Origin: a phage
DNA: 44,418 nucleotides
Sequence record: PX502252.1
Strand: one strand, 5' to 3'
The position numbers and the translations under genes were made by a program. The notes under the pieces are model-generated. The model ran no database searches and was not told where the DNA came from. It was given only the letters and a program-made list of their open reading frames with translations. Positions 98-41,722 of this stretch are shown piece after piece. Every line of letters begins with the position of its first letter. The first letter of the stretch is position 1.

Positions 98-113
98 GTC
101 TCACATGTGAGAC
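98..113. promoter_or_regulatory. 16-bp perfect palindrome GTCTCACATGTGAGAC (site 1 of 7), immediately upstream of a phage promoter
   Basis: Sequence is its own reverse complement; recurs at 281, 2649, 3757, 8492, 24999, 38880 (variants). Confidence 0.7.
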
Positions 114-2470: not shown

Positions 2471-2631
2471 TGGAAATTATTAAACCAGTATTGAGTATCG
2501 GTATTGACATCCTATTCATGCTTATGATTGCGGACTATGCTGCACGATACGGATTCAAGAAAGCTGTGAAACTTATAGTTGCATCTGGTTTTATTATGTC
2601 AATGTTCTTTATTGTAACACGCCTTATCTAG
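2470..2631 (+). CDS. Small hydrophobic membrane protein (53 aa)
   Basis: ATG overlaps helicase TGA stop (ATGA coupling); MEIIKPVLSIGIDILFMLMIADYAARYGFKKAVKLIVASGFIMSMFFIVTRLI; two hydrophobic segments; below ORF-track cutoff. Confidence 0.45.
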   Translation: MEIIKPVLSIGIDILFMLMIADYAARYGFKKAVKLIVASGFIMSMFFIVTRLI

Positions 2632-2648
2632 TGTATTTATCAGGGCTT

Positions 2649-2664
2649 GTCTCACATGTGAGAC
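2649..2664. promoter_or_regulatory. 16-bp perfect palindrome GTCTCACATGTGAGAC (site 3)
   Basis: Exact copy; intergenic. Confidence 0.7.
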
Positions 2665-2703
2665 AGGCTCTTATTAAGTACATTAAATAACTGGAGGTTG
2701 ACT

Positions 2704-3547: not shown

Positions 3548-3746
3548 ACATAGTCTTAAAATGCTCGATGGTCATGAAGACCTGCAAGCCAAGATTACTA
3601 ACCAAGCCTTCCTGTTCGCACAGTTAACTATGGCTGAGGCCAAGAAGAATAGTCTCACTCGTGAACAGGTTATCAAGGAGGCCACTTGGGAACCACACCA
3701 AGGTAAATACATGGGCCAGAAATTAACTGTAACACGCAGTCGATAA
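3537..3746 (+). CDS. Hypothetical protein (69 aa)
   Basis: ORF overlapping previous stop by 11 nt; weak SD. Confidence 0.45.
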   Translation: MQNKHSLKMLDGHEDLQAKITNQAFLFAQLTMAEAKKNSLTREQVIKEATWEPHQGKYMGQKLTVTRSR

Positions 3747-3755
3747 GTCAAGGGT

Positions 3756-3780
3756 TGTCTCACGCGTGAGACAGCCTTTT
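3756..3780 (+). terminator. Palindrome variant TGTCTCACGCGTGAGACA followed by GCCTTTT (site 4); hairpin plus T-run
   Basis: 18-bp perfect palindrome with centre CGCG instead of ATGT, then T-tract. Confidence 0.5.
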
Positions 3781-3897
3781 ATCATATTGATTGGAGGTGC
3801 ATTATGCCACGTGATTATGATTCTGATTGGGACTACTATGACTCAATGAATCCAAAACCCGAACGTTCAAATGATTACTACGAAACAGAGGCAATGT

Positions 3898-6408
3898 ATG
3901 AAAACTATTGATTGGAAGAAGGAAGCAGAAGGGCGAATCCTAGTGATGGATGCGGAAGCTAAAGGTCTGCTTGATGCTATCCGCTATGGTCATCGTGAAG
4001 ATGTACACATCATTTGCTGCATGGACTTGCTCACCACTGAGGAGTTCCTCTTCTTCGACCCATATGAGATGCGTGACCCTGAAGCAAGGGAACACCTGAA
4101 AGAGTGGGAAGGACATCAAGATGGAACCTTAGTTGACGGTGTTAACTTCCTGAAGCACTGTGAAGCTATTGTGTCGCAGAACTTCCTAGGATATGACGGT
4201 CTTCTCTTTGAGAAAGCATTCCCTGATATCTGGAAAGGCTTTAATTATACCGAGAAGCGCGGCAAGGGCAGACTCCGTGCCGACCTGTGCCCTATCCGTG
4301 TTGTCGACACGCTGGTGATGAGTCGCCTGTTAAACCCCGATAGACGCCTTCCTCCGCAAGCATATGCCAAAGGTATGGGTAACGTCGCCCCTCACTCAAT
4401 TGAGGCGCACGGCATCCGTATAGGTCGCTATAAACCGGAGAACGAGGACTGGTCTAAACTAACTGACCACATGGTTCACCGTGTACGTGAGGACGTGGCG
4501 ATTGGTCGTGACTTGTTCCTCTGGCTCTTTAACGGGGAATGGATGGAGCACAAACGCCGTGGCGTGAACAAACGTACTGGCCTAGGGATTGAGACAGCCT
4601 TCCACATGGAGTCCATTGTGGCGCTGGAGATGAGCCGTCAGGCAGAGCGTGGATTCCGTCTGGATATTGACAAAGCACTAGCGCGATGCGAAGAACTGGA
4701 CGCTAAGATTGATGAGACAGTCGCAGCGTTCCGTCCGCACATGCCTATGCGTATCAAGTCTAAACCTTTTAAACCGGAAGAAAAGAATGAAGTATGCCAA
4801 CGCGCAAATGAGTATGGAGCTAGCAACAATATACCTACTGTCCTGGACCCCTCACACTTTCTTCATGCCGAGAGACGAGGAGATCGCAAGACAGTATGGA
4901 GTGTCACTACTAAGTCTGGTGATTGGTCGGCTAGTGTCAAGAAAGACTTTCCTCACCTTAGAGGAAACCGTAATGACACGCCAAGCATCAAGTGGATTGG
5001 CGCTTACTCGCCTGTTACTTTCGAAGAGATTCCCTTGGGTAACAGGGATGCAGTTAAGCAAGTGCTCTATGATTATGGATGGAAAGGTGTTGAATTTAAC
5101 GATACCGAGCAAGCGCATCTCGATGAGCACGGAGTGTTACCCAAACCTTGGAGTGGTAAGATAAATGAAAAGTCCCTTACTTTATGGCAAGAAAGAGCCG
5201 CACGTGAAGGTAAAACAGTCCCTGATTGGTGCTTGGGTATCGCTGCATGGTACATACTCGTATCCCGTCGTGGTCAGATACTCAACCGGGGTGACGTTGA
5301 AGCCTTCAACGAGAAGGGAACGTGGCCCTCGCAGGCTGGTGTACGAAAGTGTCGCGGCCTTGTACCTGTAGCATTCAACAAGGAGTTAGGAATCAATGCG
5401 CAGCAATACTACGAGAGGTACGGATGCTGGCCTACGTCAGACAAGGATGACGGAGAGTGGCGTGTGCCAGGCAATGCTGTTACTATTGGCACTAATACGT
5501 TCCGTATGCGTCATCGTAACATTGTTAACATTCCTTCCCGTGGGTTGTATCCTTTACGTGATTTATTCATAGCTAGCAAGGGCAAAATGATACTTGGGTG
5601 TGATGGAGCAGGTCTTGAGCTACGCATCTTAGCCCATTTTATGGGTGATCCTGAGTATATTGATATAGTCTTGAATGGTGATATTCACTCGCACAACCAA
5701 GCAAAGGCTGGATTGCCCTTACGTGACACTGCGAAAACATTTATCTACGCTTTTCTCTACGGATCTGGCATACCAAATCTTGCCGCTGTATGTGGCATGA
5801 CTGAAGCACAGATGAAAGAATGTGTTGCTCGCTTTGAAGTAGAGTTACCTCATTTAGCTAAACTTAAGGAAGGGGTGGAATCCGCTGCTTCAACATTTGG
5901 ATATATGCACGCTGTAGATGGACGCTGGGGACGTGTACGCGTTAGTAATGGTGAGATTAAGATTCACACTTGTCTTAACGTACTGCTACAGATGACTGGC
6001 TCCCTCACTATGAAGTACTCAAAAGTGAAGGCTCTCGCTACTATGCGAAAAGAAGGTGTTGCCCTTGATGAGAATGGAAACCCTGCTATGCTTGTAGATT
6101 ATCATGATGAATGGCAGATGGAAGTACCTGAAGATGAAGTCTTAGAGATTCGCTACTCTATTCCTTCTTCCGAATGGAAAGAGGAAGAGAAACGTCAATA
6201 TCGTGATAGCGAAGGGCGCATGTGGTCTGCACCCAAGATTGTGGAAGGCAATCCTAAAGATGACGAAGAGGTAACAGTACGTCGCAGGTATCATCGTGCT
6301 GGTGAAATCTTAGCTGAATCTATTACGTGGGCTGGAGAATATCTCAAGCTACGTATCCGAATGGATGGCGAATATATGCTTGGATATTCATGGGCTGAAA
6401 CACACTGA
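3898..6408 (+). CDS. DNA polymerase, family A (T7 gp5-like)
   Basis: Exo I motif ILVMDAEAKGL; motif A GCDGAGLELRILAHF; motif B RDTAKTFIYAFLYGSG; motif C YHDEWQ. Start placed at ATG 3898 (AGAGG 7 nt upstream); in-frame ATG 3871 lacks SD. Confidence 0.93.
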   Translation: MKTIDWKKEAEGRILVMDAEAKGLLDAIRYGHREDVHIICCMDLLTTEEFLFFDPYEMRDPEAREHLKEWEGHQDGTLVDGVNFLKHCEAIVSQNFLGYDGLLFEKAFPDIWKGFNYTEKRGKGRLRADLCPIRVVDTLVMSRLLNPDRRLPPQAYAKGMGNVAPHSIEAHGIRIGRYKPENEDWSKLTDHMVHRVREDVAIGRDLFLWLFNGEWMEHKRRGVNKRTGLGIETAFHMESIVALEMSRQAERGFRLDIDKALARCEELDAKIDETVAAFRPHMPMRIKSKPFKPEEKNEVCQRANEYGASNNIPTVLDPSHFLHAERRGDRKTVWSVTTKSGDWSASVKKDFPHLRGNRNDTPSIKWIGAYSPVTFEEIPLGNRDAVKQVLYDYGWKGVEFNDTEQAHLDEHGVLPKPWSGKINEKSLTLWQERAAREGKTVPDWCLGIAAWYILVSRRGQILNRGDVEAFNEKGTWPSQAGVRKCRGLVPVAFNKELGINAQQYYERYGCWPTSDKDDGEWRVPGNAVTIGTNTFRMRHRNIVNIPSRGLYPLRDLFIASKGKMILGCDGAGLELRILAHFMGDPEYIDIVLNGDIHSHNQAKAGLPLRDTAKTFIYAFLYGSGIPNLAAVCGMTEAQMKECVARFEVELPHLAKLKEGVESAASTFGYMHAVDGRWGRVRVSNGEIKIHTCLNVLLQMTGSLTMKYSKVKALATMRKEGVALDENGNPAMLVDYHDEWQMEVPEDEVLEIRYSIPSSEWKEEEKRQYRDSEGRMWSAPKIVEGNPKDDEEVTVRRRYHRAGEILAESITWAGEYLKLRIRMDGEYMLGYSWAETH

Positions 6409-6417
6409 GTTATACTA

Positions 6418-6445
6418 AAGGTCACTTACGAGTGGCCTTTATGAA
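6418..6445 (+). terminator. Hairpin downstream of DNA polymerase (AAGGTCACT-TACG-AGTGGCCTT) with weak T-tract
   Basis: 9-bp stem with tetraloop; 3' arm AGTGGCCT resembles RNAP-downstream terminator. Confidence 0.35.
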
Positions 6446-6476
6446 TAACTTACTCCCACCTATTTTGTATAACAGG

Positions 6477-6562: not shown

Positions 6563-6940
6563 ATGTCTATGGTAACTACTCTGGTATTCGTAGCTCAATA
6601 CTTTCGTGGCTTGGCTAACAAGTTCAAGCAGAAAGCCATCAAGCATATTGAGAAACGTATTGCTGCAATTGAAGATGAGCAGGTTCAAGTAGAGGAGCAG
6701 CGTAGCTCTCAGATGGTTGACTTGCACAATCGACTGTATAAAGACCGTGATGAAATGCGTCACCGTCATGCGAAGGAAGTCGAAGACATGCTTAACCGCC
6801 ATGCGGAAGAACAAGCTAAACTGGAAACAACCTTCCATGAGAATAAGCGTAGCATTGCTCTAGTACATCAAGCTGCATCTGACAGTCTGAAGAAAGAGAT
6901 TGTTATGCTGGAAATTGAACTGGACAACCTAACTAAGTAA
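6563..6940 (+). CDS. Hypothetical protein (125 aa), charged helical/coiled-coil-like
   Basis: ATG with GGAGG upstream; K/E/R-rich. Confidence 0.65.
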   Translation: MSMVTTLVFVAQYFRGLANKFKQKAIKHIEKRIAAIEDEQVQVEEQRSSQMVDLHNRLYKDRDEMRHRHAKEVEDMLNRHAEEQAKLETTFHENKRSIALVHQAASDSLKKEIVMLEIELDNLTK

Positions 6941-6946
6941 GGAGCT

Positions 6947-7246
6947 ATGATGGAAGAAGTAATTCAAGCTAAACATGTAGGTATCATCTTTCGTGATTTA
7001 GAGCAGCGTAAAGTTGCAGGTCACACTCGTCTGGCTAAAGAAGAAGACACAGCAATCACTACTGTTGAACAAGCAGATGCCTATCGTGGGCCAGAGTTTA
7101 CTCAAGGTGAAACTTGTCACCAATTGAGCCTGTCGCTTTGTGATACTATTGCTAGTGTGAATGTTCAAGAAGTTGAAGACGGTGAGATTGTTAGTTACGT
7201 CTACCCTCTAGACACTATTGCACGCATTAAAGTAATTCATAAATAA
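6947..7246 (+). CDS. Hypothetical protein (99 aa)
   Basis: TAAGGAG upstream; start 6947 or 6950. Confidence 0.6.
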   Translation: MMEEVIQAKHVGIIFRDLEQRKVAGHTRLAKEEDTAITTVEQADAYRGPEFTQGETCHQLSLSLCDTIASVNVQEVEDGEIVSYVYPLDTIARIKVIHK

Positions 7247-7267
7247 TTACTGGACACTATAGAACAA
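7245..7267 (+). promoter_or_regulatory. SP6-type phage promoter variant (AATTACTGGACACTATAGAACAA) overlapping stop codon of upstream gene
   Basis: Core ACTGGACACTATAGAA conserved; downstream AAGAG replaced by ACAA. Confidence 0.6.
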
Positions 7268-7455
7268 TAGGACGTGGGTTTGTCAGAGACAGTAAATCCA
7301 AGGTGCTCAGTGAGCGTAAAGCCTAAGCACGTCCTATGATTGTAAAGTGTTGAACCTTATTGTGCATCTTGCACAACCCGATATAGTATCGGGCTTTCTA
7401 GTGAGTACATGCTTGTGCTCAGTACAAAGCTAACTGACAATAGGAGACTAAATAA

Positions 7456-8262
7456 ATGGCACGTTCTGAATTTAACTATGGTGCTGATGTAACTAAGACA
7501 GAGGGTAAGGTATTTAAGAACCCTGAAGTAGGTGATCATGAAGCAGTAATCTCTGGCATCATTCATGTTGGTTCCTTCCAAGACATTTTTAAGAAAGGCA
7601 ATACCACTGAAGTCAAGAAGCCAGCAAACTTTGTTCTTGTTAAGATTGTCCTGATGGGCGACGATGATAAGAACGAAGATGACTCTCGCATGGAACAATG
7701 GATGGCTGTGCCTCTGAAGTCTGGTGATAAGGCAACACTAACTAAGTTCCTGAATGCAGTTGACCCTAAAGAGTTGCTGGGTGGCTTCGATGATTTTATC
7801 GGTGAATGTCTGACTGCAACTATGGTTGGCTCTGGCGACAAGAATGATGATGGTACTTTCAAGTATGTTAACTGGAAAGGCTTTGGTGGTATGCCGGATA
7901 AGCTGAAGAAACTTGTCATTGCTCAGGTTGAAGAAGAGGGTCTGTCTATGACAGGTCATATTACCTTCGACAAGCTGACCAAAGAAATCCTTGATGATAT
8001 TCCTGCTAACTTGGTGCGTCAATACTTCCTGAACGAGACGCCTCGTGGCAAGAACCTGTCTGTTGCTGGCTCTCACGTAGAAGCAATCATCAAAGCTGCT
8101 CGTGAAGAAGACCCAGAGTGGAAGAAAGCTAAGAAGAAAGATGAAGAGGATGCCACTCCAGCTAATCGTAGATCTCTGGATACAGACGAGTCTGTTCCAC
8201 AGGAAGTACCTGAAGCGGAGGACAACCCTGCACCTGAAATGGATGAAGACGCGGAATACTAA
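7456..8262 (+). CDS. Hypothetical protein (268 aa) with acidic C-terminal tail ending in Tyr; candidate ssDNA-binding protein
   Basis: TAGGAGA upstream; C-terminus ...EAEDNPAPEMDEDAEY; function inferred only from tail and position among replication genes. Confidence 0.7.
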   Translation: MARSEFNYGADVTKTEGKVFKNPEVGDHEAVISGIIHVGSFQDIFKKGNTTEVKKPANFVLVKIVLMGDDDKNEDDSRMEQWMAVPLKSGDKATLTKFLNAVDPKELLGGFDDFIGECLTATMVGSGDKNDDGTFKYVNWKGFGGMPDKLKKLVIAQVEEEGLSMTGHITFDKLTKEILDDIPANLVRQYFLNETPRGKNLSVAGSHVEAIIKAAREEDPEWKKAKKKDEEDATPANRRSLDTDESVPQEVPEAEDNPAPEMDEDAEY

Positions 8263-8491: not shown

Positions 8492-8507
8492 GTCTCACGT
8501 GTGAGAC
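8492..8507. promoter_or_regulatory. Palindrome variant GTCTCACGTGTGAGAC (site 5), 15 bp upstream of phage promoter
   Basis: Same arms GTCTCAC/GTGAGAC with centre GT. Confidence 0.65.
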
Positions 8508-8970: not shown

Positions 8971-9029
8971 TAATAGCAGGTGTTGCCTCTGTTAGTCCTG
9001 GTTGACTATCACGCTCACCTCATCTAATG

Positions 9030-9061
9030 CCCTGTCTGCCTTAGTGTAGGCAGGGTCTTTT
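9030..9061 (+). terminator. Stem-loop plus T-run terminator (CCCTGTCTGCC...GGCAGGGTCTTTT)
   Basis: GC-rich inverted repeat followed by TCTTTT; same architecture as terminator at 18121. Confidence 0.65.
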
Positions 9062-11695: not shown

Positions 11696-11712
11696 TTGAC
11701 ACTATAGAACAA
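11690..11712 (+). promoter_or_regulatory. SP6-type phage promoter variant (ATTTAGTTGACACTATAGAACAA)
   Basis: Core TGACACTATAGAA conserved; upstream ATTTAG as in SP6 itself. Confidence 0.6.
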
Positions 11713-11795
11713 AGGGCTAGGTAAGACTTTATCGGCTGGCGTATCCAAATGATATTGCACTAGCCCTTGATTGTATAGTGAATGGAGGATTCAAT

Positions 11796-18120: not shown

Positions 18121-18156
18121 GCCCTATCTACCTTGCGTAGGTAGGGTTCTTTTGTT
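18121..18156 (+). terminator. Stem-loop plus T-run terminator after capsid gene (GCCCTATCTACC...GGTAGGGTTCTTTTG)
   Basis: Same architecture as 9030-9061. Confidence 0.7.
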
Positions 18157-22038: not shown

Positions 22039-24981
22039 ATGGCAATTGAACGTCAAGCTGTACAAGGTTTAGAAAGAGTACAGTCAAGGGGCGCGCCAAC
22101 ACCTATGTCTTTCACACCACGACAAGTGAGTATCTCAGGGGGCGCTGATGCCTCCGGTAGTAGATTTTTGGAAGACTTAGTAAACGCCGCAAGTAGTGTG
22201 GCTGATGTCACTACTGCTATCCTTAATCAGCAAGTAGAAGACGATAAGGTTCGCCAGATGGATAGGGCTTTGTCTGGCATGATGCCTTCTGAGGATGCCA
22301 CGGTAGGCGGTGCTCGTGCTCATATGCTGGTTAGTTTACAAAATGATGTAATCGCACAGACAACTGCGCTACAAGCAGAAGCACAGCGATTTCAAGGTAG
22401 TGACGAGGATTGGGAAAACTATGTAGTTCAATCTCGTAATGAGGTACAAAATAGATTATGGCAAAGTTATCCAGAGCTTCGTGGTGACAAAGATTCTATG
22501 AGGCTTGTCACTAACGCGTTCATGGAGCAGCAACCTAGAATTACTGCAACTAGAGCAGAGGCTAAACTTCGTCAAGAAGAAGAAGCACGAATGCAATCTA
22601 TGCAGTCTCGTATTATCATGGCTACAAGGGACGTAGCGCCAGATGCCACTGGTGCAGCTCTTATCCAGCTACAAAAAGAAGCACTGGCGATGGGTCTTAG
22701 TAAACCTGAGTTTGATCAAATGGTTGCTAAGATTGCATCTGAAAGAGCGGCAGTAGGAGATGATAGTCTTATTCAGGGAACCAAGGCATTGGTGGATGAT
22801 AAGGGTGTCTCTTTGTATGACCGTGTTGGTGCTTTGCAAACTGGAGAAATTCAAGCTAACAGAACTTGGGCTGCTCAGAATCAGGTTGCCCTCTTCGAGA
22901 AGAAAGATGCAGCTATAAAGGCATTCGATGCAGGGCAACTTACTCGCGAAGAGTTACTTCAGGTAATGCAGAATCACAATGAATTGACTGGTGGCACTGC
23001 TTGGTCTGATAGCGAGATCAAGGCTATCTTCGATAGGCAAGCTAAGGTTAATGCAGAGAAAGCAAAGCTCGAAGATCTTATTGCACGAGGTGAATCTGGG
23101 TCGCCTTTAGGCTTACAGGACATTAGTAAGGATGACAGAAAGACATATGCTGAAGCCTTAGTTAGTACCTACACTAAGCTGGCAGAAGATGAAATTGCTC
23201 GTACTGGTGCAACGGGAGAACAGGCTGAAGCTATTCGCGGTAGGTATGAGCAGATGCGTTATCTTAAATTGGGTCAACAGCTTATTGAAGACCCGATCAT
23301 TAAGGAAAGGTATTCGTCGCTTATGCAGCTATCCTCTGCCAACCTCAAGGATATGAATGTTGAACCTGAAGCACTGCAAACTATCATGCGAGCACGTGAT
23401 TCTATTCCAGAGGATGCACGTCGTGCTGTTATGGGAGACAAAGAATATGCCTTTGTTGAGAACTATGACTTAGCAACTCGCATGGGATATAACACAGGTC
23501 AAGCTATTGAGTTTGCACAGAATGCCTCTCGCGGCGAGAAATTACAAGGTTCTGTGCTCAAAGAACTTAATGATGATGTAGATGGAGTAGTTAGTGACAT
23601 TGCAGGAGGTAGCTGGCTCACTTTTGGTGATAACATGAGTGAAATGGGACGTGACATTATGATGGAGGAGGCAAGTACAATTGCTAGAGCAATGAAGGTT
23701 GCAGGCCATAATAATGACACTATTAAGCGTCACCTTAAATCCTATCTTACAAGCCAGTATACACAATTGTCAGAAGGTTTCTTTACTCAAGGTGTTCTTG
23801 TAAAAGGAGACATTCGTACATTAGGGGACACTATAGGAGTAAACCAAGGAGACGTCCCAATGGCTCTCCGTCAGTACCTAGATAATAACAAACAAGCTCT
23901 ACTAGATGCATCAGGTGGGTTAGAGGAAGGCGACCTGTATTTTGATGTAGATGCGCAGCGTGGCCTCTTTACTATACGTGCAGGCTCTGGTCGTGTGCCT
24001 GTTACACAGGCAATGCCTTTGTCTGAAATCAAAGGTCAATCCTTGCTTAAGCAACGGTATGATGCAGAGGTTAAAGCACGTGATGAAGGGCGTAAGAATT
24101 TTGAAGCACAACAAATGCGAATGTGGGGTGCAGGTGGATATCAAGCACAGCCACCTGCAAAGACTACAGCCAAAACTGTAGGCTCACGTGGTATTGCTGA
24201 CTTCTTAATGTCTCCCGCCTTTGCATCAGGTGAAAGATTGCCAGCAAACTTTGAGTTTGGCTATAAGAGGAATAATATGGACTTTTATAACTATGTGGCT
24301 AAGACTGAGAATAGCGCCAATGTAGGGTTCGACCGAGTAGCGGGAGTTTATACACCATACAAAGATGCACATGGTCAGTCTGTAGGTTATGGTCACTTCC
24401 TTACTGCTGAAGAGAAGAAGAACGGATACATTATGATTGGTACAGAGAAAGTGCCATTCACTCCGGGGCAATCTCAATTAACACCAGAACGTGCCATGCG
24501 CCTCCTACAGCAAGACTTGAAGAGCCATGTGCCAAGCACTTCAGGGTGGGCTGTTCCCTTCGAAGAGATGCACCCAGGTGTTCAGCGTGGCCTTATGGAT
24601 TTGTCCTATAACTTAGGTAAAGGAGGCATCCAGAATGCTCCTAAGGCATATGCTGCGTTTAAGGCTGGCAAGTTTACTGATGGCTTTATCGAGATGTTAT
24701 CTACTGCATCTACTGAAGGTAAACGTAGCACTGGGTTGTTGGTTCGTAGGGCAGAAGCATATAATCTTGCCCAGAGCGGAGGTGCTGTTCCTAAGATTAG
24801 TGAAGTAGAGACACGAGCAGATGGGTCCATGTATGTGAAGTTTGCAGGTCAGATGTCAGAGGCTTTCGTAAGTAAATCAATCTATAATCAGATTGGTAAG
24901 GATGGGTGGATGCAAGTGTACCCTCCAAAACAAGGTGCGCTTGCACCTAACACTCAGGTTGGTAGAATCAAACTAAGCTAG
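22039..24981 (+). CDS. Internal virion protein with C-terminal T4-lysozyme-like (GH24) muramidase domain
   Basis: 980 aa; segment E...YTPYKDAHGQSVGYGHFLT matches the E/D/T catalytic region pattern of T4 lysozyme (YKDTEGYYTIGIGHLLT). Confidence 0.8.
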   Translation: MAIERQAVQGLERVQSRGAPTPMSFTPRQVSISGGADASGSRFLEDLVNAASSVADVTTAILNQQVEDDKVRQMDRALSGMMPSEDATVGGARAHMLVSLQNDVIAQTTALQAEAQRFQGSDEDWENYVVQSRNEVQNRLWQSYPELRGDKDSMRLVTNAFMEQQPRITATRAEAKLRQEEEARMQSMQSRIIMATRDVAPDATGAALIQLQKEALAMGLSKPEFDQMVAKIASERAAVGDDSLIQGTKALVDDKGVSLYDRVGALQTGEIQANRTWAAQNQVALFEKKDAAIKAFDAGQLTREELLQVMQNHNELTGGTAWSDSEIKAIFDRQAKVNAEKAKLEDLIARGESGSPLGLQDISKDDRKTYAEALVSTYTKLAEDEIARTGATGEQAEAIRGRYEQMRYLKLGQQLIEDPIIKERYSSLMQLSSANLKDMNVEPEALQTIMRARDSIPEDARRAVMGDKEYAFVENYDLATRMGYNTGQAIEFAQNASRGEKLQGSVLKELNDDVDGVVSDIAGGSWLTFGDNMSEMGRDIMMEEASTIARAMKVAGHNNDTIKRHLKSYLTSQYTQLSEGFFTQGVLVKGDIRTLGDTIGVNQGDVPMALRQYLDNNKQALLDASGGLEEGDLYFDVDAQRGLFTIRAGSGRVPVTQAMPLSEIKGQSLLKQRYDAEVKARDEGRKNFEAQQMRMWGAGGYQAQPPAKTTAKTVGSRGIADFLMSPAFASGERLPANFEFGYKRNNMDFYNYVAKTENSANVGFDRVAGVYTPYKDAHGQSVGYGHFLTAEEKKNGYIMIGTEKVPFTPGQSQLTPERAMRLLQQDLKSHVPSTSGWAVPFEEMHPGVQRGLMDLSYNLGKGGIQNAPKAYAAFKAGKFTDGFIEMLSTASTEGKRSTGLLVRRAEAYNLAQSGGAVPKISEVETRADGSMYVKFAGQMSEAFVSKSIYNQIGKDGWMQVYPPKQGALAPNTQVGRIKLS

Positions 24982-24998
24982 TGTTATACTCAAGGTTT

Positions 24999-25014
24999 GT
25001 CTCACATGTGAGAC
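24999..25014. promoter_or_regulatory. 16-bp perfect palindrome GTCTCACATGTGAGAC (site 6), between internal virion protein genes
   Basis: Exact copy, flanked by T/A extending palindrome to 18 bp. Confidence 0.7.
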
Positions 25015-25048
25015 ATGCCTTTATGAATGACACTAACTAGGAGGTAAC

Positions 25049-35890: not shown

Positions 35891-35946
35891 CACGCAACTT
35901 TTCTTAAAGGTTATCATGGTGGTAGCCTTTCAGAAAAGGAGGGTAC

Positions 35947-37605
35947 ATGCTGCAACGATTAAGTGCTTCCTTAGTGAAGTACAAGAGCAAGCTCATAGGA
36001 GCTACCTATAGGTTGCTTGGTGATAAACTTTTAGAGCTAAATAGTGTATCAGATTTTGGTGCAATACCTAATCTTGAAACAGATAGTACTAACTCCATTC
36101 AAGCTGCAATTGATGCGACCCCGTCTGGTGGTACTCTAGGCTTCTATGGTGGGCCTTATAGATTTGGTACTGTTACAGTGGATAAACCAATTACACTAGT
36201 TGGAGATGCAGATTTGCAGTTTGAGTGCATTCGTATCAAGACAAGTAAGTTTCGTAGTTTCTTGACAGGAACACTAACTGCTGCAAGATACGACAGTGCA
36301 TGTCGTGCATTTCAAATCTTAGCCTATGAAGATGGGGAAGATTATGAGGACATCAAGGTACATGGTGCACGTTTCGAGGGTTTCTTCTATAACACAGACT
36401 TCCGAGGCCGTTCTTACGATGCGTCAGAAAGTGATCCCGCTAACAGAGTGGTTCGGGATACCTCCATTATGGGTTGTACTTCAGTTCAACCTAAAGATGG
36501 TAAAGACAGAGGGCACTTTCAACACGTAGGTGTTACCAATGCCAAGTGCATAGGTAACTCAACGTATGGTGGTAAGAATGCTACTTCTTATAACTTCATT
36601 AATGGTAATGGCTCTTTGGTGGTTATTGGTAATTATGACCATGACAATGAATACGGCTCCTTAGAGATTGAGAATAACAAGATAAGCTATGGTGTGGTTA
36701 CTGGTAATATCTTCCATAAACAACTATGGATAGATGATACTAGCAATATTAATGTAATAGGTAACACCTGTACAGATAGGATTTACATTACTGCACAATC
36801 TAACAACTCTGAGAACGTATCAGTAGTGGGGAATAATGTACCACGCATCTACGTCAGTAAGTTTGGTCAAAGCCCAACAGGGCGTCACCGTAACTTGACT
36901 ATACGTGGTAATCATATCACTGGCAAGGATGTTCCTAACTGTATCTTCTTAGATGATTCTGTTGATTCCGCTTCTATTGAAGGTAATGATTGTTATGGTG
37001 TGTCTGGTGTTAAAGGCATAGCCATTACTCGTCATGCAGATGCTAACCATACAGTGCGTCATAATAACTTACATGGCACTAACTTACTCTTTAGTGGTTC
37101 GGGCGGAAAAGTTTATAGTTATGACAACTTTGATGTTGGAGTTGATGAATCCCCTGTGGCAGACAGAACTGACGCAGTGCACATTGACAACCTTCTTCGT
37201 GTAAATGATGAGTACCTTGATTTGCCAGGAAAGTACCTATACAAATCTAAGTATACAAGAGACATTACACAAGGTGGCTCAACCACTATTGAGTTACCTG
37301 TAACCACAAGTGGTTCTTTGGCTTTTCGTGGTATTAGTTTATGGGTTCTTATCCGTAACACTTCTACGGGGAACTTGTCTTCTTATCGTGTAGATGGAAG
37401 ACATGCAGTAAGTGGTTCTTCTGTGACTGTTAGCTTTGGAGAGAAGTATGGGGTATTAGGAGTGAATACTGGTGATGTTACTGTTAGTAATGATGCCTCT
37501 ACGACTACTCTTATTCGTATCAAGGTAAGCAATGAGCATGTAAGTCAGACAATGCAGGTTACAGTTGTACCAGAGGTAACAAGCAGATTAGGGACTGAAG
37601 AGTAA
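35947..37605 (+). CDS. Tailspike with pectate-lyase-like right-handed beta-helix (polysaccharide depolymerase)
   Basis: AAAGGAGGG SD; N-terminal VSDFGAIPN...TDSTNSIQAAIDATPSGGTL...TLVGD typical of beta-helix depolymerase start; repeated GN-containing rungs (VIGNYD, VIGNTC, VVGNNV, IRGNHI, IEGNDC). Confidence 0.8.
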   Translation: MLQRLSASLVKYKSKLIGATYRLLGDKLLELNSVSDFGAIPNLETDSTNSIQAAIDATPSGGTLGFYGGPYRFGTVTVDKPITLVGDADLQFECIRIKTSKFRSFLTGTLTAARYDSACRAFQILAYEDGEDYEDIKVHGARFEGFFYNTDFRGRSYDASESDPANRVVRDTSIMGCTSVQPKDGKDRGHFQHVGVTNAKCIGNSTYGGKNATSYNFINGNGSLVVIGNYDHDNEYGSLEIENNKISYGVVTGNIFHKQLWIDDTSNINVIGNTCTDRIYITAQSNNSENVSVVGNNVPRIYVSKFGQSPTGRHRNLTIRGNHITGKDVPNCIFLDDSVDSASIEGNDCYGVSGVKGIAITRHADANHTVRHNNLHGTNLLFSGSGGKVYSYDNFDVGVDESPVADRTDAVHIDNLLRVNDEYLDLPGKYLYKSKYTRDITQGGSTTIELPVTTSGSLAFRGISLWVLIRNTSTGNLSSYRVDGRHAVSGSSVTVSFGEKYGVLGVNTGDVTVSNDASTTTLIRIKVSNEHVSQTMQVTVVPEVTSRLGTEE

Positions 37606-38159: not shown

Positions 38160-38900
38160 ATCTTAGTGTTGTACAAGGAATAACCAAAGTCAAAATTTTG
38201 ATGTAGGCGTGTGTGAGGTGTCTCGCCCTCGCCCTCGCCGGGATGTCCCCATAGGGTGGCCTGAGGGAATCCGTCTCCGACGGGCAGGGCTGATGCACTC
38301 CTTGTACTAGCTTAGTAGTACACAAGGGATGACCGTACTAGTTAGCTGGTACAGCCTAGTCTTTGCTCATGTACTAGCAAGGTGGAACGCCGGAGAACGC
38401 CTAGGACGGCCTAGGGATGGCTTAGTGGTGGACAAGGTGATTGCCTTAGTGAAGCCTCTTAGTGCATTCCTGAGGCTATTCAGGGCCATTCCTGAGCGTT
38501 TGACAGGGTGGGCGTGGGTGGGCTATCTGTTCGTTTCGTCGCTGGCGCTCCTCACTTCGTTTCGCCTAGCGCTCCACTCACAAGCCTGACGTGTACCTTA
38601 GTCACTACCTTAGGTTGTTCCTTGATGGATAGCTTAGGTTAACCTTAGTGGATTGCCTTAGTTAAAGCCTTAGTGCTTCACTTAGTATCAGCTTAGTAGT
38701 GTACCTTAGTCAGTCTTAGTGTTAGACCTTAGTGACTACATAGCTACGCTATAAGATGCAAATAGGTCGCGGTCGGTAGACCGCTAATAAGAAGTAATAG
38801 TAATAAGATGCAGTAGGAGGAACACCAGAAACCTAGTCAGCCTAGCCTATCCTAGCTCTGTATCTATTGCGTTTCCTTAGTCTCACATGTTAGACAACCT
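38160..38900. repeat. Non-coding, repeat-dense genome-terminus region (GC-rich block then array of about 11 CTTAGT/CCTTAGT units); probable site of terminal repeat/concatemer junction
   Basis: CTCGCC x3, TACTAG x3, ATTCCTGAG x2, TTCGTTTCG x2, then CTTAGT repeats every 10-14 bp (38590-38750); no SD-led ORFs; analogous to T7 terminal-repeat heptamer arrays. Confidence 0.6.
38880..38895. promoter_or_regulatory. Palindrome variant GTCTCACATGTTAGAC (site 7, one mismatch)
   Basis: 15/16 match to the recurrent palindrome. Confidence 0.5.
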
Positions 38901-39812: not shown

Positions 39813-39991
39813 ATTAACTATTGACAGCCACGGCATACAAGGTTACATTAAGCATCAAGACGGCGACGTCTTTAAACATCCCGCTCTTTAACAATTTGGA
39901 TAGTCGCTTCTTAGTCTGGATAGGTTAAACCTAGGAGATTCTCTTGAGTCTCCTATAATGTAACCTAACTAACTAAATGAGGATTAATAAC

Positions 39992-40533: not shown

Positions 40534-40710
40534 ATGAAATACATACTGATTGCTATGTTTTCTGGCTTCATTGGCTATGCTGGTGCTTCTTATGACAACT
40601 ACAGAAGTAAGCAATTGGCTGCTGAAAAGTGGGATAAAACCTACTTTGCTTGTATGAAACAAGGTAATTTGATGCAAGATTGCATACTTAAAGCGCACAG
40701 CGAAGAGTGA
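40534..40710 (+). CDS. Small early protein with N-terminal hydrophobic signal/TM segment (58 aa)
   Basis: GAGG 8 nt upstream; MKYILIAMFSGFIGYAGA...; three Cys. Confidence 0.55.
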   Translation: MKYILIAMFSGFIGYAGASYDNYRSKQLAAEKWDKTYFACMKQGNLMQDCILKAHSEE

Positions 40711-40774
40711 TGAGCCTATAGCCTACTTAAGTGGGCTATGTGAACATCATTCATTAACTCAAAAGGTGACTATT

Positions 40775-41659
40775 ATGACTACTGAAAACACCCTCCTGTC
40801 TGTTCGTGAAGCTGCAACCGCTGAGATCAAGCAACACTTAGACAATATCGGCACTTCTTACATCAAAGTTGGCGCTTGTCTTAATGAGTTACGCGGTGAC
40901 TTTGAAGGTCAAAAAGACTTTTTGGCTTATGTAGAAGCAGAAATTGGAATCAAGAAAGCACAATGTTACAAGCTGATGAGTGTAGCCCGTGTCTTTGAAG
41001 GCGATGATCGCTTTAAAGGCGTGGCGATGCGTGTAATGCTGGCACTTATTCCTTTCGCTGATGAAAATATCATCATGGAGAAAGCCGCAGAACTTGCCGC
41101 AGCGGGCAAGCTGGACACTAACGCCGTGAACGCCCTGATTGAGCCTAAGAAAGAGCCAAAGTCTGAGACGGTACAACCCAAGGCTGAGCCTGTAAAACCG
41201 CAGGAGAACGCGACTGCGTCCGCAGAATCACAGGAAACGCAAGCGCCGCAGGAAGTGCCGCCAGCAAGTGAGTCTGATGACGACGAATCAGCACCGTGGG
41301 AAGAGGAAAGCAAGCCGGAAGCGCCTAAGGCCGCGCCACTGGATAACACGGCTAACACTGAGAACGCCGCCATGTCTGGCCTGCTGGCACAAATTAAGTC
41401 ACTGACTGAGCAATTACAGGCAGCTAACGACCGCATCGCCGCCCTAACCAGTGCACGCGAAAGCAAGAAAGCCGCCGCTCCTATGCTCCCGCAATTCAAA
41501 TCTTCTTGCTTTTACGCTCGCTTAGGATTGAGCGCTGAGGAGGCAACGAAGAAAACAGCGGTGAACAAGGCACGCCGCGAACTGGTTAAGCTGGGATATG
41601 GTGAAGGCCATGAGGCATGGGCTTTAATCTCTGAGGCAGTAGAAGAATTAACTAAGTAA
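40775..41659 (+). CDS. Early protein (294 aa), two domains joined by acidic P/E/A/K-rich low-complexity linker; function unknown
   Basis: Position of T7 gene 0.7 but no kinase motifs recognised; ATG 40775 preferred over GTG 40766. Confidence 0.7.
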   Translation: MTTENTLLSVREAATAEIKQHLDNIGTSYIKVGACLNELRGDFEGQKDFLAYVEAEIGIKKAQCYKLMSVARVFEGDDRFKGVAMRVMLALIPFADENIIMEKAAELAAAGKLDTNAVNALIEPKKEPKSETVQPKAEPVKPQENATASAESQETQAPQEVPPASESDDDESAPWEEESKPEAPKAAPLDNTANTENAAMSGLLAQIKSLTEQLQAANDRIAALTSARESKKAAAPMLPQFKSSCFYARLGLSAEEATKKTAVNKARRELVKLGYGEGHEAWALISEAVEELTK

Positions 41660-41722
41660 CCTTATCGGTGGCATCTTCTTAGGTGTCACCTATTAAGGTT
41701 TCTTTCACTAGGAGTAAACAAG

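What the first reader, a model, noticed from the sequence alone, without database searches (positions are those of the whole stretch)
7268..7440. Structured leader upstream of the 268-aa gene
Downstream of the promoter at 7245 there is a long-range inverted repeat TAGGACGTG ... CACGTCCTA (about 50 nt apart) and two tandem 7-bp-stem hairpins (TTGTGCA-TCT-TGCACAA and CCCGATA-TAG-TATCGGG). This could be an RNase III processing site or translational control element, as found between T7 genes.
Basis: seen in the sequence. Interest (0 to 1): 0.45.

Follow-up and report, generated by a model that had tools for sequence, protein, structure and literature searches.

The report
Promoter-fused RNA hairpin plus three-hairpin leader
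The untranslated leader in front of this SP6-like phage's probable DNA-binding (SSB) gene really is a conserved folded RNA, most likely an mRNA processing and stability signal like those known in phage T7, so it is a solid but fairly ordinary regulatory feature.

Summary
The window is an SP6/K1-5-like phage. The region is the 209-nt leader between an SP6-type promoter (start about 7262) and a 268-aa gene whose model has an OB fold, so probably the phage SSB.

The long-range inverted repeat (7268-7276/7328-7336) is the upper stem of a conserved hairpin family fused to the promoter. Its lower stem pairs promoter bases -8 to -1 with the conserved flank UGAUUGUAWAGUG. A second copy sits at promoter 11698. 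Across 26 variants, 94.7% of pairs hold and 7 pairs show compensatory changes.

The family resembles T7 RNase III sites. A model built from T7 sites scores distant family members at borderline levels and finds about 8 canonical sites elsewhere in this genome. It does not score this copy.

The two 7-bp hairpins plus a third (7360-7430) form an optional, single-copy module in about half of the relatives. It is 93-99% conserved, with changes mostly in loops. It is too short for RNase III, and I read it as a leaky terminator or stability module.

No conserved masking of the ribosome-binding site was found. Cleavage is untested.

The parts
7245..7266 (+). SP6-type phage promoter (-17 to +5); transcription start G at 7262; initially transcribed GAACAA
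   Evidence: Exact core GACACTATAGAA at 7253-7264. It is one of 9 exact copies and about 12 promoter-like sites, all on the + strand. It aligns with the SP6 and K1-5 promoters upstream of gene 18/16.
7254..7350 (+). Hairpin 1 in the form present in read-through transcripts: lower stem (promoter -8..-1 with 7343-7350), G.G mismatch, 2 bp, 2x2 internal loop, 10-bp upper stem, branched apex
   Evidence: The arms are 23 nt and 83% complementary. The fold of 7250-7354 gives -33.4 kcal/mol, z -3.2. On 26 short-form relatives, 94.7% of cells pair against 31-45% when partners are slid, and 7 pairs show compensatory change.
7268..7276 (+).
   Evidence: Long-form variants keep the pairing: L049 has UAGGGUGUG/CACAUCCUA (one compensatory change, one G-U), and mutPK1A2 has UAGGAUGUG (U.G).
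7328..7336 (+). 3' arm of the inverted repeat (CACGUCCUA)
7277..7327 (+). Apical 51-nt insert of the 'long form' (two small hairpins); absent from most relatives, which have an 8-nt loop instead
   Evidence: Alignment. The insert is found in only 11 of 84 related GenBank records. On its own it does not fold better than shuffles (z -0.25).
7337..7350 (+). Conserved 3' flank UGAUUGUAAAGUGU; pairs with +2..+3 and promoter -8..-1; predicted zone of RNase III cleavage (inferred)
   Evidence: Columns 40-46 are invariant in 26 variants. The pair between promoter -7 and the flank covaries: CG 20, GU 2, UG 2, GC 1, UA 1. The flank resembles T7 R1.1 CCUUUAUGAUUG.
7346..7359 (+). Variable spacer; relatives carry 1-3 copies of GTTGAT here
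7360..7376 (+). Hairpin 2 (7 bp, loop UCU), first hairpin of optional module 2
   Evidence: The stem is invariant in 14 variants and the loop varies (UCU, UAU, UGU).
7377..7399 (+). Hairpin 3 (7 bp, loop UAG) followed by CUUUCU: weak intrinsic-terminator look-alike
   Evidence: It is a terminator-pattern hit and is annotated as an ARNold terminator in phage R4596. The apex is hypervariable, with more than 8 versions, while the stem is kept. NTNC80A has a compensatory CCCCA/UGGGG.
7393..7430 (+). Hairpin 4 (14-15 pairs with conserved C.C and G.G mismatches, loop UGCU); most conserved part of module 2
   Evidence: The fold gives -14.4 kcal/mol, z -2.9. All cells pair in 14 variants. The only changes are in the loop or preserve pairing as G-U or U-G.
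7442..7458 (+). Shine-Dalgarno AGGAG (7442-7446) and ATG (7456) of the 268-aa gene (K1-5 gp16 / SP6 gp18; probable SSB)
   Evidence: The structure model has an OB fold, and the top PDB matches are ssDNA-binding proteins.
11698..11785 (+). Paralogous promoter-fused hairpin upstream of the DUF3310 gene (ATG 11796): same GAACAA and UGAUUGUAUAGUG flanks, different upper stem (AGGGCUAG/CUAGCCCU)
   Evidence: The fold gives -33.0 kcal/mol, z -5.0. The family model scores it 29.5 bits, E 3.5e-5.
6402..6458 (+). Context: canonical T7-type RNase III-site look-alike just after the DNA polymerase gene
   Evidence: The T7-derived model scores it 49.3 bits, E 8.7e-10.

Best explanation
The leader is a two-part mRNA processing and stability region.

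**Part 1 (7254-7350).** This is a hairpin fused to the promoter. In transcripts that read through from upstream promoters, promoter bases -8 to -1 pair with the conserved flank UGAUUGUAAAGUGU. The result is an irregular helix of about 22 bp equivalents with an internal loop. I infer that host RNase III cuts it on the 3' side, around 7337-7345. The cut would leave upstream mRNAs with a protective 3' hairpin and give the SSB-gene mRNA a defined 5' end. This is how T7 sites work, especially R3.8, R6.5 and R13, which also overlap promoters. Transcripts started at 7262 carry only the upper two-thirds of the helix.

**Part 2 (7360-7430).** This is an optional insert of three abutting hairpins between the hairpin and the ribosome-binding site. 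I infer that it tunes expression of the SSB gene in two ways. It could act as a structural barrier to 5'-end-dependent decay of the processed mRNA. Through hairpin 3 plus CUUUCU, it could also act as a leaky terminator or pause site for the phage polymerase.

**Shown:** the structures, their conservation and covariation, their strand specificity, and their modular presence or absence.

**Inferred:** the enzyme, the cleavage position, and the effect on expression.
For: **The structure is real and acts as RNA on the + strand.**
- Covariation: 7 pairs with compensatory changes and 94.7% of cells paired.
- Many G-U pairs, which would be C.A mismatches on the other strand.

**The lower stem uses promoter bases.**
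- The pair at promoter -7 covaries in three lineages. That points to a role in read-through RNA.

**The hairpin belongs to a family.**
- There is a second copy at 11698, and two or three copies per genome in relatives.

**There is a link to RNase III sites.**
- The T7-site model R1 recovers T7 R6.5, which was not in its training set.
- It finds 8 intergenic sites in this window, each just 5' of a start codon.
- It scores hairpin-1 family members in L065 and L063 at 21.9-23 bits, E 0.04-0.075.
- In the other direction, the family model's top two hits in T7 are the R1.1 and R0.3 upper stems. Its best non-family hit in the window is the canonical site at 6417-6440.
- L065/L063 upper stems AAGGUCAUCUUCGGGUGGCCUU nearly equal T7 R1 CAGGUCAUCUGCGGGUGGCCUG.

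**The position fits.**
- In relatives with minimal leaders, the predicted cut lies 27-33 nt before the AUG. By my count from the recalled T7 cleavage coordinates and the annotated gene starts, T7 sites lie 22-42 nt before the AUG.

**No strong antideterminant is visible.**
- Assuming a homologous register, the proximal-box positions read G-C, A-U, U-A, A-U, with no G-C at positions 2 or 4 (rules from PMC1540722).

**Conservation is high.**
- The leader is 95-98% identical to SP6, while the flanking genes are 55-87% identical.

**Module 2.**
- z -4.9.
- Variable columns are enriched in unpaired positions: 7 of 16 unpaired against 9 of 56 paired, Fisher p 0.036.
- The hairpin 3 tail resembles the genome's three strong terminators, which end GGGU-(U)CUUUUG.
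Against: - The T7-site model gives no hit (E up to 10) on 7262-7440, and none on the copy at 11700-11785. The family model also misses this long-form copy.
- No Rfam family matches.
- No experimental end-mapping is available. The SP6 and K1-5 genome papers could not be read.
- The apex of this copy is branched rather than a simple tetraloop, so the distal-box rule cannot be applied.
- Module 2 shows almost no covariation: 1 compensatory pair, and most pairs are invariant.
- Module 2 is absent from about half of the relatives, including phages whose SSB protein is 96% identical to this one. It is therefore dispensable.
- Its terminator-like tail has only 4 U in 6, and its stem is 7 bp against 11 bp in the genome's clear terminators.
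Confidence: 0.5

Rival explanations
1. Hairpin 1 is simply a 5'-terminal stabiliser of transcripts started at 7262. It would protect them from RppH and from RNase E 5'-end-dependent decay, with no RNase III involvement.
For: The hairpin begins within a few nucleotides of the start site in all family members. Protection by 5' stem-loops is an established principle in E. coli (my own knowledge).
Against: The minimum-energy fold of the promoter-initiated RNA leaves 5 nt (GAACA) unpaired at the 5' end. That is more than a good stabiliser tolerates. The conserved pairing and the covarying pair involving promoter bases -8..-1 exist only in read-through RNA.
Confidence: 0.15
2. The promoter, hairpin 1, the spacer, hairpin 2 and hairpin 3 with its U-rich tail together make a short non-coding RNA of about 135-140 nt, ending near 7396-7400. 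It would act in trans, and read-through of the leaky terminator would give the SSB-gene mRNA.
For: A terminator-like hairpin is present. Nucleotide conservation is unusually high for non-coding DNA. The module is optional and exchanged between lineages.
Against: Hairpin 4, the most conserved element, lies downstream of the putative terminator. The single-stranded spacer varies in length. The U tract is short. No E. coli or plasmid sequence is similar to the leader, though that search does not test for short target complementarity.
Confidence: 0.12
3. The leader is a translational operator for autoregulation by the downstream SSB-like protein, as in T4 gene 32. The structured element would nucleate cooperative binding over the unstructured A-rich ribosome-binding region.
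For: The downstream gene has an OB fold and an acidic tail. Hairpin 4 is followed by an unstructured stretch, UAACUGACAAUAGGAGACUAAAUAAAUG. The C.C and G.G mismatches in hairpin 4 are conserved, which suggests protein recognition.
Against: Module 2 is missing in phages whose protein is 96% identical to this one. No pseudoknot was found. No conserved pairing covers the SD.
Confidence: 0.08
4. The repeats act at the DNA level: a replication origin primed from the promoter, a cruciform, or palindromic operators for a dimeric protein.
For: The T7 primary origin combines promoters with the R1.1 region (my own knowledge). Hairpins 2 and 3 are perfect 17-bp palindromes.
Against: G-U pairs make the structures strand-specific. 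There is no AT-rich tract and no GC-skew inflection. The apex of hairpin 3 is hypervariable, which is unlike an operator.
Confidence: 0.05
5. Module 2 and the apical insert are functionless passengers left by recombination between phage lineages.
For: All four combinations of long or short hairpin with or without module 2 exist. Phages without these parts are viable.
Against: Identity is 93-99% across carriers whose neighbouring genes have diverged to 55-87%. Substitutions avoid stems or preserve pairing.
Confidence: 0.1

Closest known systems
Phage T7 RNase III sites that overlap late promoters (R3.8, R6.5, R13)
   Same: The hairpin is built partly from promoter nucleotides. In T7 R3.8 the 5' arm is the initiation region of phi3.8, and in R6.5 the promoter sits inside the hairpin (folds). 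Both lie just upstream of the next gene, and both are read by a single-subunit phage RNA polymerase.
   Different: The sequence differs. The helix has a G.G mismatch plus a 2x2 loop rather than the T7 bubble. This copy has a branched 51-nt apex. Cleavage is untested here. The T7 cleavage coordinates were recalled from memory (Dunn and Studier 1983) and checked only for consistency with folds.
Canonical T7 RNase III sites (R0.3, R0.5, R1, R1.1, R1.3, R4.7, R18.5)
   Same: The upper-stem base AAGG/CCUU and the 3' flank UGAUUG are shared. Distant family members have nearly the T7 R1 upper stem and score 22-23 bits with the T7 model. The same genome carries about 8 canonical copies.
   Different: This copy is not detected by the T7 model. 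The 5' CUC bulge is absent, the internal loop is smaller, and the lower stem is the promoter itself.
Intrinsic (class I) terminators of T7-like phages, such as T-phi and the window's own 9029-9056 and 18121-18147
   Same: Hairpin 3 ends in GGG followed by CUUUCU, like the genome's terminators, which end GGGU(U)CUUUUG.
   Different: The stem is 7 bp against 11 bp and the U run is shorter. It lies inside a 5' leader rather than after a gene. It is flanked directly by two other hairpins.
T4 gene 32 autoregulatory leader
   Same: A structured element lies upstream of an unstructured ribosome-binding region of an SSB gene.
   Different: There is no pseudoknot, the module is optional among close relatives, and there is no binding evidence.

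Membership tests
T7-type RNase III processing site (canonical) | Matches the sequence and structure profile of known T7 sites | tested here: not met
   Model R1 was built from 7 T7 sites. It gives no hit with E up to 10 in 7262-7440 or 11700-11785 with filters off. It does hit 8 other window sites, and family members in L063 and L065 at 21.9-23 bits.
T7-type RNase III processing site (canonical) | Irregular double helix of about two turns (about 20-22 bp) with an internal loop at the cleavage site | tested here: met
   The arms are 23 nt and 83% complementary. The order is 8 bp, a G.G mismatch, 2 bp, a 2x2 loop and 10 bp. The length requirement comes from PMC1540722.
T7-type RNase III processing site (canonical) | Proximal and distal box determinants, with no G-C at proximal-box positions 2 and 4 | tested here: inconclusive
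   By inspection, assuming a homologous register, pb1 is G-C, pb2 A-U, pb3 U-A (canonical is A-U) and pb4 A-U, so no antideterminant is present. The distal box cannot be assigned because the apex is branched. Rules are from PMC1540722.
T7-type RNase III processing site (canonical) | Lies about 20-40 nt upstream of the next start codon | tested here: inconclusive
   The distance is 27-33 nt in minimal-leader relatives and at the 11698 copy. In this window it is about 117 nt because module 2 intervenes.
T7-type RNase III processing site (canonical) | Cleaved by host RNase III in vivo or in vitro | not testable with these tools
   No transcript-end data were found in the searchable literature.
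T7 promoter-overlapping RNase III sites (R3.8/R6.5/R13 type) | Promoter nucleotides form part of the processed hairpin | tested here: met
   Promoter -8..-1 pairs with 7343-7350. Across 26 variants 87.5% of cells pair, and the -7 pair covaries.
Intrinsic terminator for phage or host RNA polymerase (hairpin 3) | Stable G+C-rich stem followed directly by a run of U | tested here: inconclusive
   It passes a lenient pattern scan: 7 pairs, 4 G-C, tail CTTTCTAGTG. ARNold gave -8.5 in R4596. It is clearly weaker than the terminators at 31-54, 9029-9056 and 18121-18147.
Any curated RNA family (Rfam 15) | Score at or near a family's gathering threshold | tested here: not met
   Only chance-level matches were found, the best at 21.7 bits against a gathering score of 70, and none lay on the + strand hairpins.
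5'-terminal mRNA stabiliser hairpin | No more than about 1-2 unpaired nucleotides at the 5' end of the promoter-initiated RNA | tested here: inconclusive
   The MFE fold leaves 5 nt unpaired. The centroid forms two weak pairs inside the leading GAACA, which leaves 3 nt unpaired.
Mobile or repeated element (MITE-like) | Multiple copies in the genome or in other genomes at other sites | tested here: not met
   Model R3 of module 2 finds only 7357-7436 in the window and nothing in 20 related loci or T7. blastn finds it only at this locus.

The most novel reading that the evidence does not exclude
The leader, made of the long branched hairpin plus the three-hairpin module, may be a horizontally exchanged non-coding RNA cassette under strong sequence constraint. 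Its product would be released by RNase III and/or the leaky terminator. It would act in its own right, for example as a trans-acting phage small RNA, a decoy for a host dsRNA- or 5'-triphosphate-sensing defence, or the operator of SSB autoregulation. On this reading it is more than a processing signal.
Probability: 0.12. Interest if true: 0.65.

Novelty: new variant of a known kind. Interest (0 to 1): 0.33.

Why it matters
It suggests that SP6-like phages, the source of a standard laboratory RNA polymerase, share T7's strategy of fusing RNA-processing hairpins to middle promoters. They add a distinct, covarying variant of it.

It also gives concrete, testable cleavage and termination positions for the mRNA of the probable SSB gene.

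Natural variants carry all four combinations of modules. They are ready-made material for measuring how such leaders tune mRNA stability and expression.

The result does not change any general principle.

Tried and rejected
- **Rfam scan of 6800-7900 at E up to 10:** only chance hits.
- **T7-site covariance model on the finding itself:** no hit.
- **Replication-origin idea:** no AT-rich tract and no GC-skew change.
- **Small ORFs:** MIVKC at 7337-7354 has no SD. The ATG at 7410 is in frame with the gene in SP6 but out of frame here, so it is not a conserved coding extension (sequence inspection).
- **SD sequestration:** the MFE of the full leader pairs 7268-7276 with codons 2-4 and 7280-7286 with 7434-7440. 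Relatives lack these complementarities.
- **Host origin:** no similarity in 5,426 E. coli genomes or 72,556 plasmids.
- **Mobile-element idea:** the 9-nt direct repeat ACAATAGGA at 7264 and 7437 prompted it. The module is single-copy, and the repeat also flanks the minimal hairpin in relatives.
- **Minus-strand gene:** the 113-aa ORF at 7357-7698 (-) has a TTG start and lies antisense to the conserved gene. I treated it as spurious.
- **Literature:** no paper in the library describes RNase III sites or transcript mapping in SP6-like phages. The SP6 and K1-5 genome papers were not held.

Full report
**What the window is.** The 301 nt around the finding match 84 phage records. Nearly all are SP6/K1-5-like podoviruses (Molineuxvirinae: Vectrevirus, Zindervirus). 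The best match is Escherichia phage PSK8 at 95.6%, and SP6 itself matches at 90.8%. The finding lies in the 209-nt gap between a 99-aa ORF (K1-5 gp15.5 homologue, 6947-7246) and a 268-aa ORF (7456-8262; K1-5 gp16 / SP6 gp18). The 268-aa protein has no Pfam or PDB sequence match. An AlphaFold model (pLDDT 74.7) has an OB fold, and its best PDB matches are ssDNA-binding proteins: PrgE at E 1.7e-4, then RPA, PriB and SSB. With its acidic tail ending in an aromatic residue, it is probably the phage SSB, the analogue of T7 gp2.5. The tail comparison rests on my own knowledge.

**Checking the observation.** The promoter core GACACTATAGAA is at 7253-7264, so transcription should start at G7262. It is one of 9 exact copies, all on the + strand. 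The inverted repeat is longer than reported. Its 23-nt arms, 7254-7276 and 7328-7350, are 83% complementary, so the 5' arm begins 8 nt upstream of the start site, inside the promoter. Besides the two 7-bp hairpins there is a third, imperfect hairpin at 7393-7430, and all three abut without linkers. Folding energies beat shuffles: whole leader z -4.3, 7355-7436 z -4.9, 7250-7354 z -3.2.

**Comparative anatomy: two independent modules.** I aligned the gap from 12 GenBank relatives and from about 50 metagenomic and viral loci.
- Every member with this promoter type has a hairpin right after the start site. Most have a short form, for example UAGGUCG-GCUUAGU-UCGGCCUA.
- The window, SP6, CrRp3, PSK8 and a few others have a long form, in which 51 nt replace the loop. 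Only 11 of 84 records carry it.
- The three-hairpin block, which I call module 2, is present in 42 of 84 records. It is absent from, for example, the ACG-C91 group, whose gap is only 77 nt.
- All four combinations of long or short hairpin with or without module 2 occur.
- The leader is 95-98% identical to SP6, whereas the flanking genes are 55-87% identical.

**Hairpin 1 is a conserved, covarying, promoter-fused RNA structure.** A second copy sits at the promoter at 11698. It has the same flanks (GAACAA ... UGAUUGUAUAGUG) but a different upper stem, AGGGCUAG/CUAGCCCU. Relatives carry two or three copies per genome, always at promoters that start GAACAA.
- On 26 distinct short-form sequences, 94.7% of cells form pairs, against 31-45% when partners are slid.
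- Seven pairs show compensatory changes, and no shuffle reaches the observed covariation.
- Frequent G-U pairs make the structure specific to the + strand, which means RNA.
- The lower stem pairs promoter -8..-1 with the 3' flank, with 87.5% of cells paired. The pair at -7 covaries in three lineages: C-G, G-C, G-U, U-A, U-G. These bases are transcribed only in RNA that reads through from upstream promoters, so the element is selected at least partly for that RNA.

**Is it an RNase III site?** I built a covariance model from seven canonical T7 sites. The cleavage coordinates were recalled from Dunn and Studier 1983, and the folds are consistent with them.
- The model recovers T7 R6.5, which was left out of training.
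- In the window it finds strong matches at 6402-6458 (49.3 bits), 24976-25040 (39.7), 40702-40757 (27.2) and 3734-3798 (22.6), plus four weaker ones. All are on the + strand, intergenic, and just 5' of a start codon. This phage therefore carries sites that match the T7 RNase III-site profile.
- The model does not hit 7262-7440 or the copy at 11700-11785. Canonical membership is not met for this copy.
- It does score family members in more distant SP6-like phages at the borderline: L065 at 23.0 and 21.9 bits, L063 at 22.6 bits, E 0.04-0.075. Their upper stems, AAGGUCAUCUUCGGGUGGCCUU, nearly equal T7 R1.
- In the other direction, a model of the hairpin-1 family has its top two T7 hits on the R1.1 and R0.3 upper stems. 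Its best non-family hit in the window is on the canonical site at 6417-6440. Each of these hits is individually non-significant, but their placement on known sites is striking.
- The 3' flank CCUAUGAUUG resembles T7 R1.1 CCUUUAUGAUUG at the cleavage point.
- T7 R3.8, R6.5 and R13 likewise embed promoter bases in the hairpin.
- Under published rules (an 11-bp minimum and about 22-bp optimal helix, and no G-C at proximal-box positions 2 and 4; PMC1540722), this hairpin has adequate length and no antideterminant. The distal box cannot be assigned.

I conclude that hairpin 1 works like, and is probably derived from, T7-type RNase III sites. I put that at about 0.55. It is a distinct promoter-fused variant, and cleavage remains unproven.

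**Module 2.** It is single-copy and found only at this locus. It has no host or plasmid counterpart.
- Among 14 variants, 99% of cells pair but most pairs never vary. There is one compensatory change (NTNC80A, CCCCA/UGGGG) and three wobble-preserving changes.
- Variable columns are enriched in unpaired positions, p 0.036.
- The apex of hairpin 3 is hypervariable, with more than 8 versions, and the upstream spacer carries 1-3 copies of GTTGAT.
- Hairpin 3 plus CUUUCU passes a lenient terminator scan and was annotated as a terminator in phage R4596. It is much weaker than the genome's three clear terminators, which have 10- or 11-bp stems followed by a longer run of U.
- Seven-bp stems are too short for RNase III.
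- Hairpin 4 has invariant C.C and G.G mismatches and is the most constrained part. Its role is unknown.
- My working reading is a barrier against 5'-end-dependent decay of the processed mRNA, combined with a leaky terminator or pause. Confidence is low, about 0.3. Because the module is absent from phages whose SSB is 96% identical to this one, it can only modulate expression.

**Rejected ideas.** The following found no support: Rfam families, a replication origin, small ORFs, conserved masking of the ribosome-binding site, a host-derived sequence and a mobile element.

**Verdict.** The feature is a new variant of a known kind and of modest interest.

Noticed in passing
window 98-113, 281-296, 1081-1096, 2649-2664, 3757-3772, 8492-8507, 24999-25014, 38880-38895: A 16-bp palindrome, GTCTCAC(A/G)(T/C)GTGAGAC, occurs 8 times on the + strand against 0.19 expected. 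Three copies form the apex of T7-type RNase III-like hairpins. Others sit about 10-15 nt upstream of phage promoters (98->124, 281->310, 8492->8531). It also appears in the gp16 leader of the distant relative L069.
   Followed up: partly
window 2626-2690, 3734-3798, 6402-6458, 24976-25040, 35895-35948, 39918-39972, 40702-40757, 41651-41709: About eight matches to a covariance model of canonical T7 RNase III sites (49 to 18 bits). All are on the + strand, intergenic, and immediately 5' of a start codon. I could not check whether this is already described for SP6 or K1-5.
   Followed up: partly
window 7346-7359 and homologous positions in L003, L006, L009: The hexamer GTTGAT varies from 1 to 3 copies in the spacer between hairpin 1 and module 2 among close relatives.
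   Followed up: no
window 7383-7387: The apex of hairpin 3 has at least 8 different sequences among relatives that are otherwise 93-99% identical. In the window and Sem1 the apex UAUAGUA is complementary to part of the promoter core (pair I7).
   Followed up: no
L066 5840-6000, L067, L068, L071 1375-1500: In more distant Klebsiella-type relatives, the leader of the same gene starts with the hairpin CAGGUGCUCACUCUUUGAGUGGGUAUCUG. A long-range stem follows that encloses a 60-130 nt interior differing completely between phages. The segment GUAUCUG can pair either 5' or 3', giving two exclusive folds.
   Followed up: partly
window 7277-7327: The 51-nt apical insert looks like two degenerate RNase III-site upper stems. 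GGGTTTGTC..GACAG resembles the site at 3734-3798, and AAGGTGCTCA..TGAGCG..GCCTAAG resembles T7 R1.3. The 9-mer GTGCTCAGT is repeated in the 3' arm of hairpin 4 (7303 and 7415).
   Followed up: no
window 7208-7223: A promoter-like sequence, CTAGACACTATTGCAC, lies inside the 99-aa ORF, 42 nt upstream of the real promoter core and 81% identical to it (family D1).
   Followed up: no
window 7456-8262: The 268-aa protein is annotated as hypothetical everywhere, and mis-annotated as an HNH endonuclease in NTNC80A. Its model has an OB fold matching ssDNA-binding proteins, so it is probably the SSB of SP6-like phages.
   Followed up: partly
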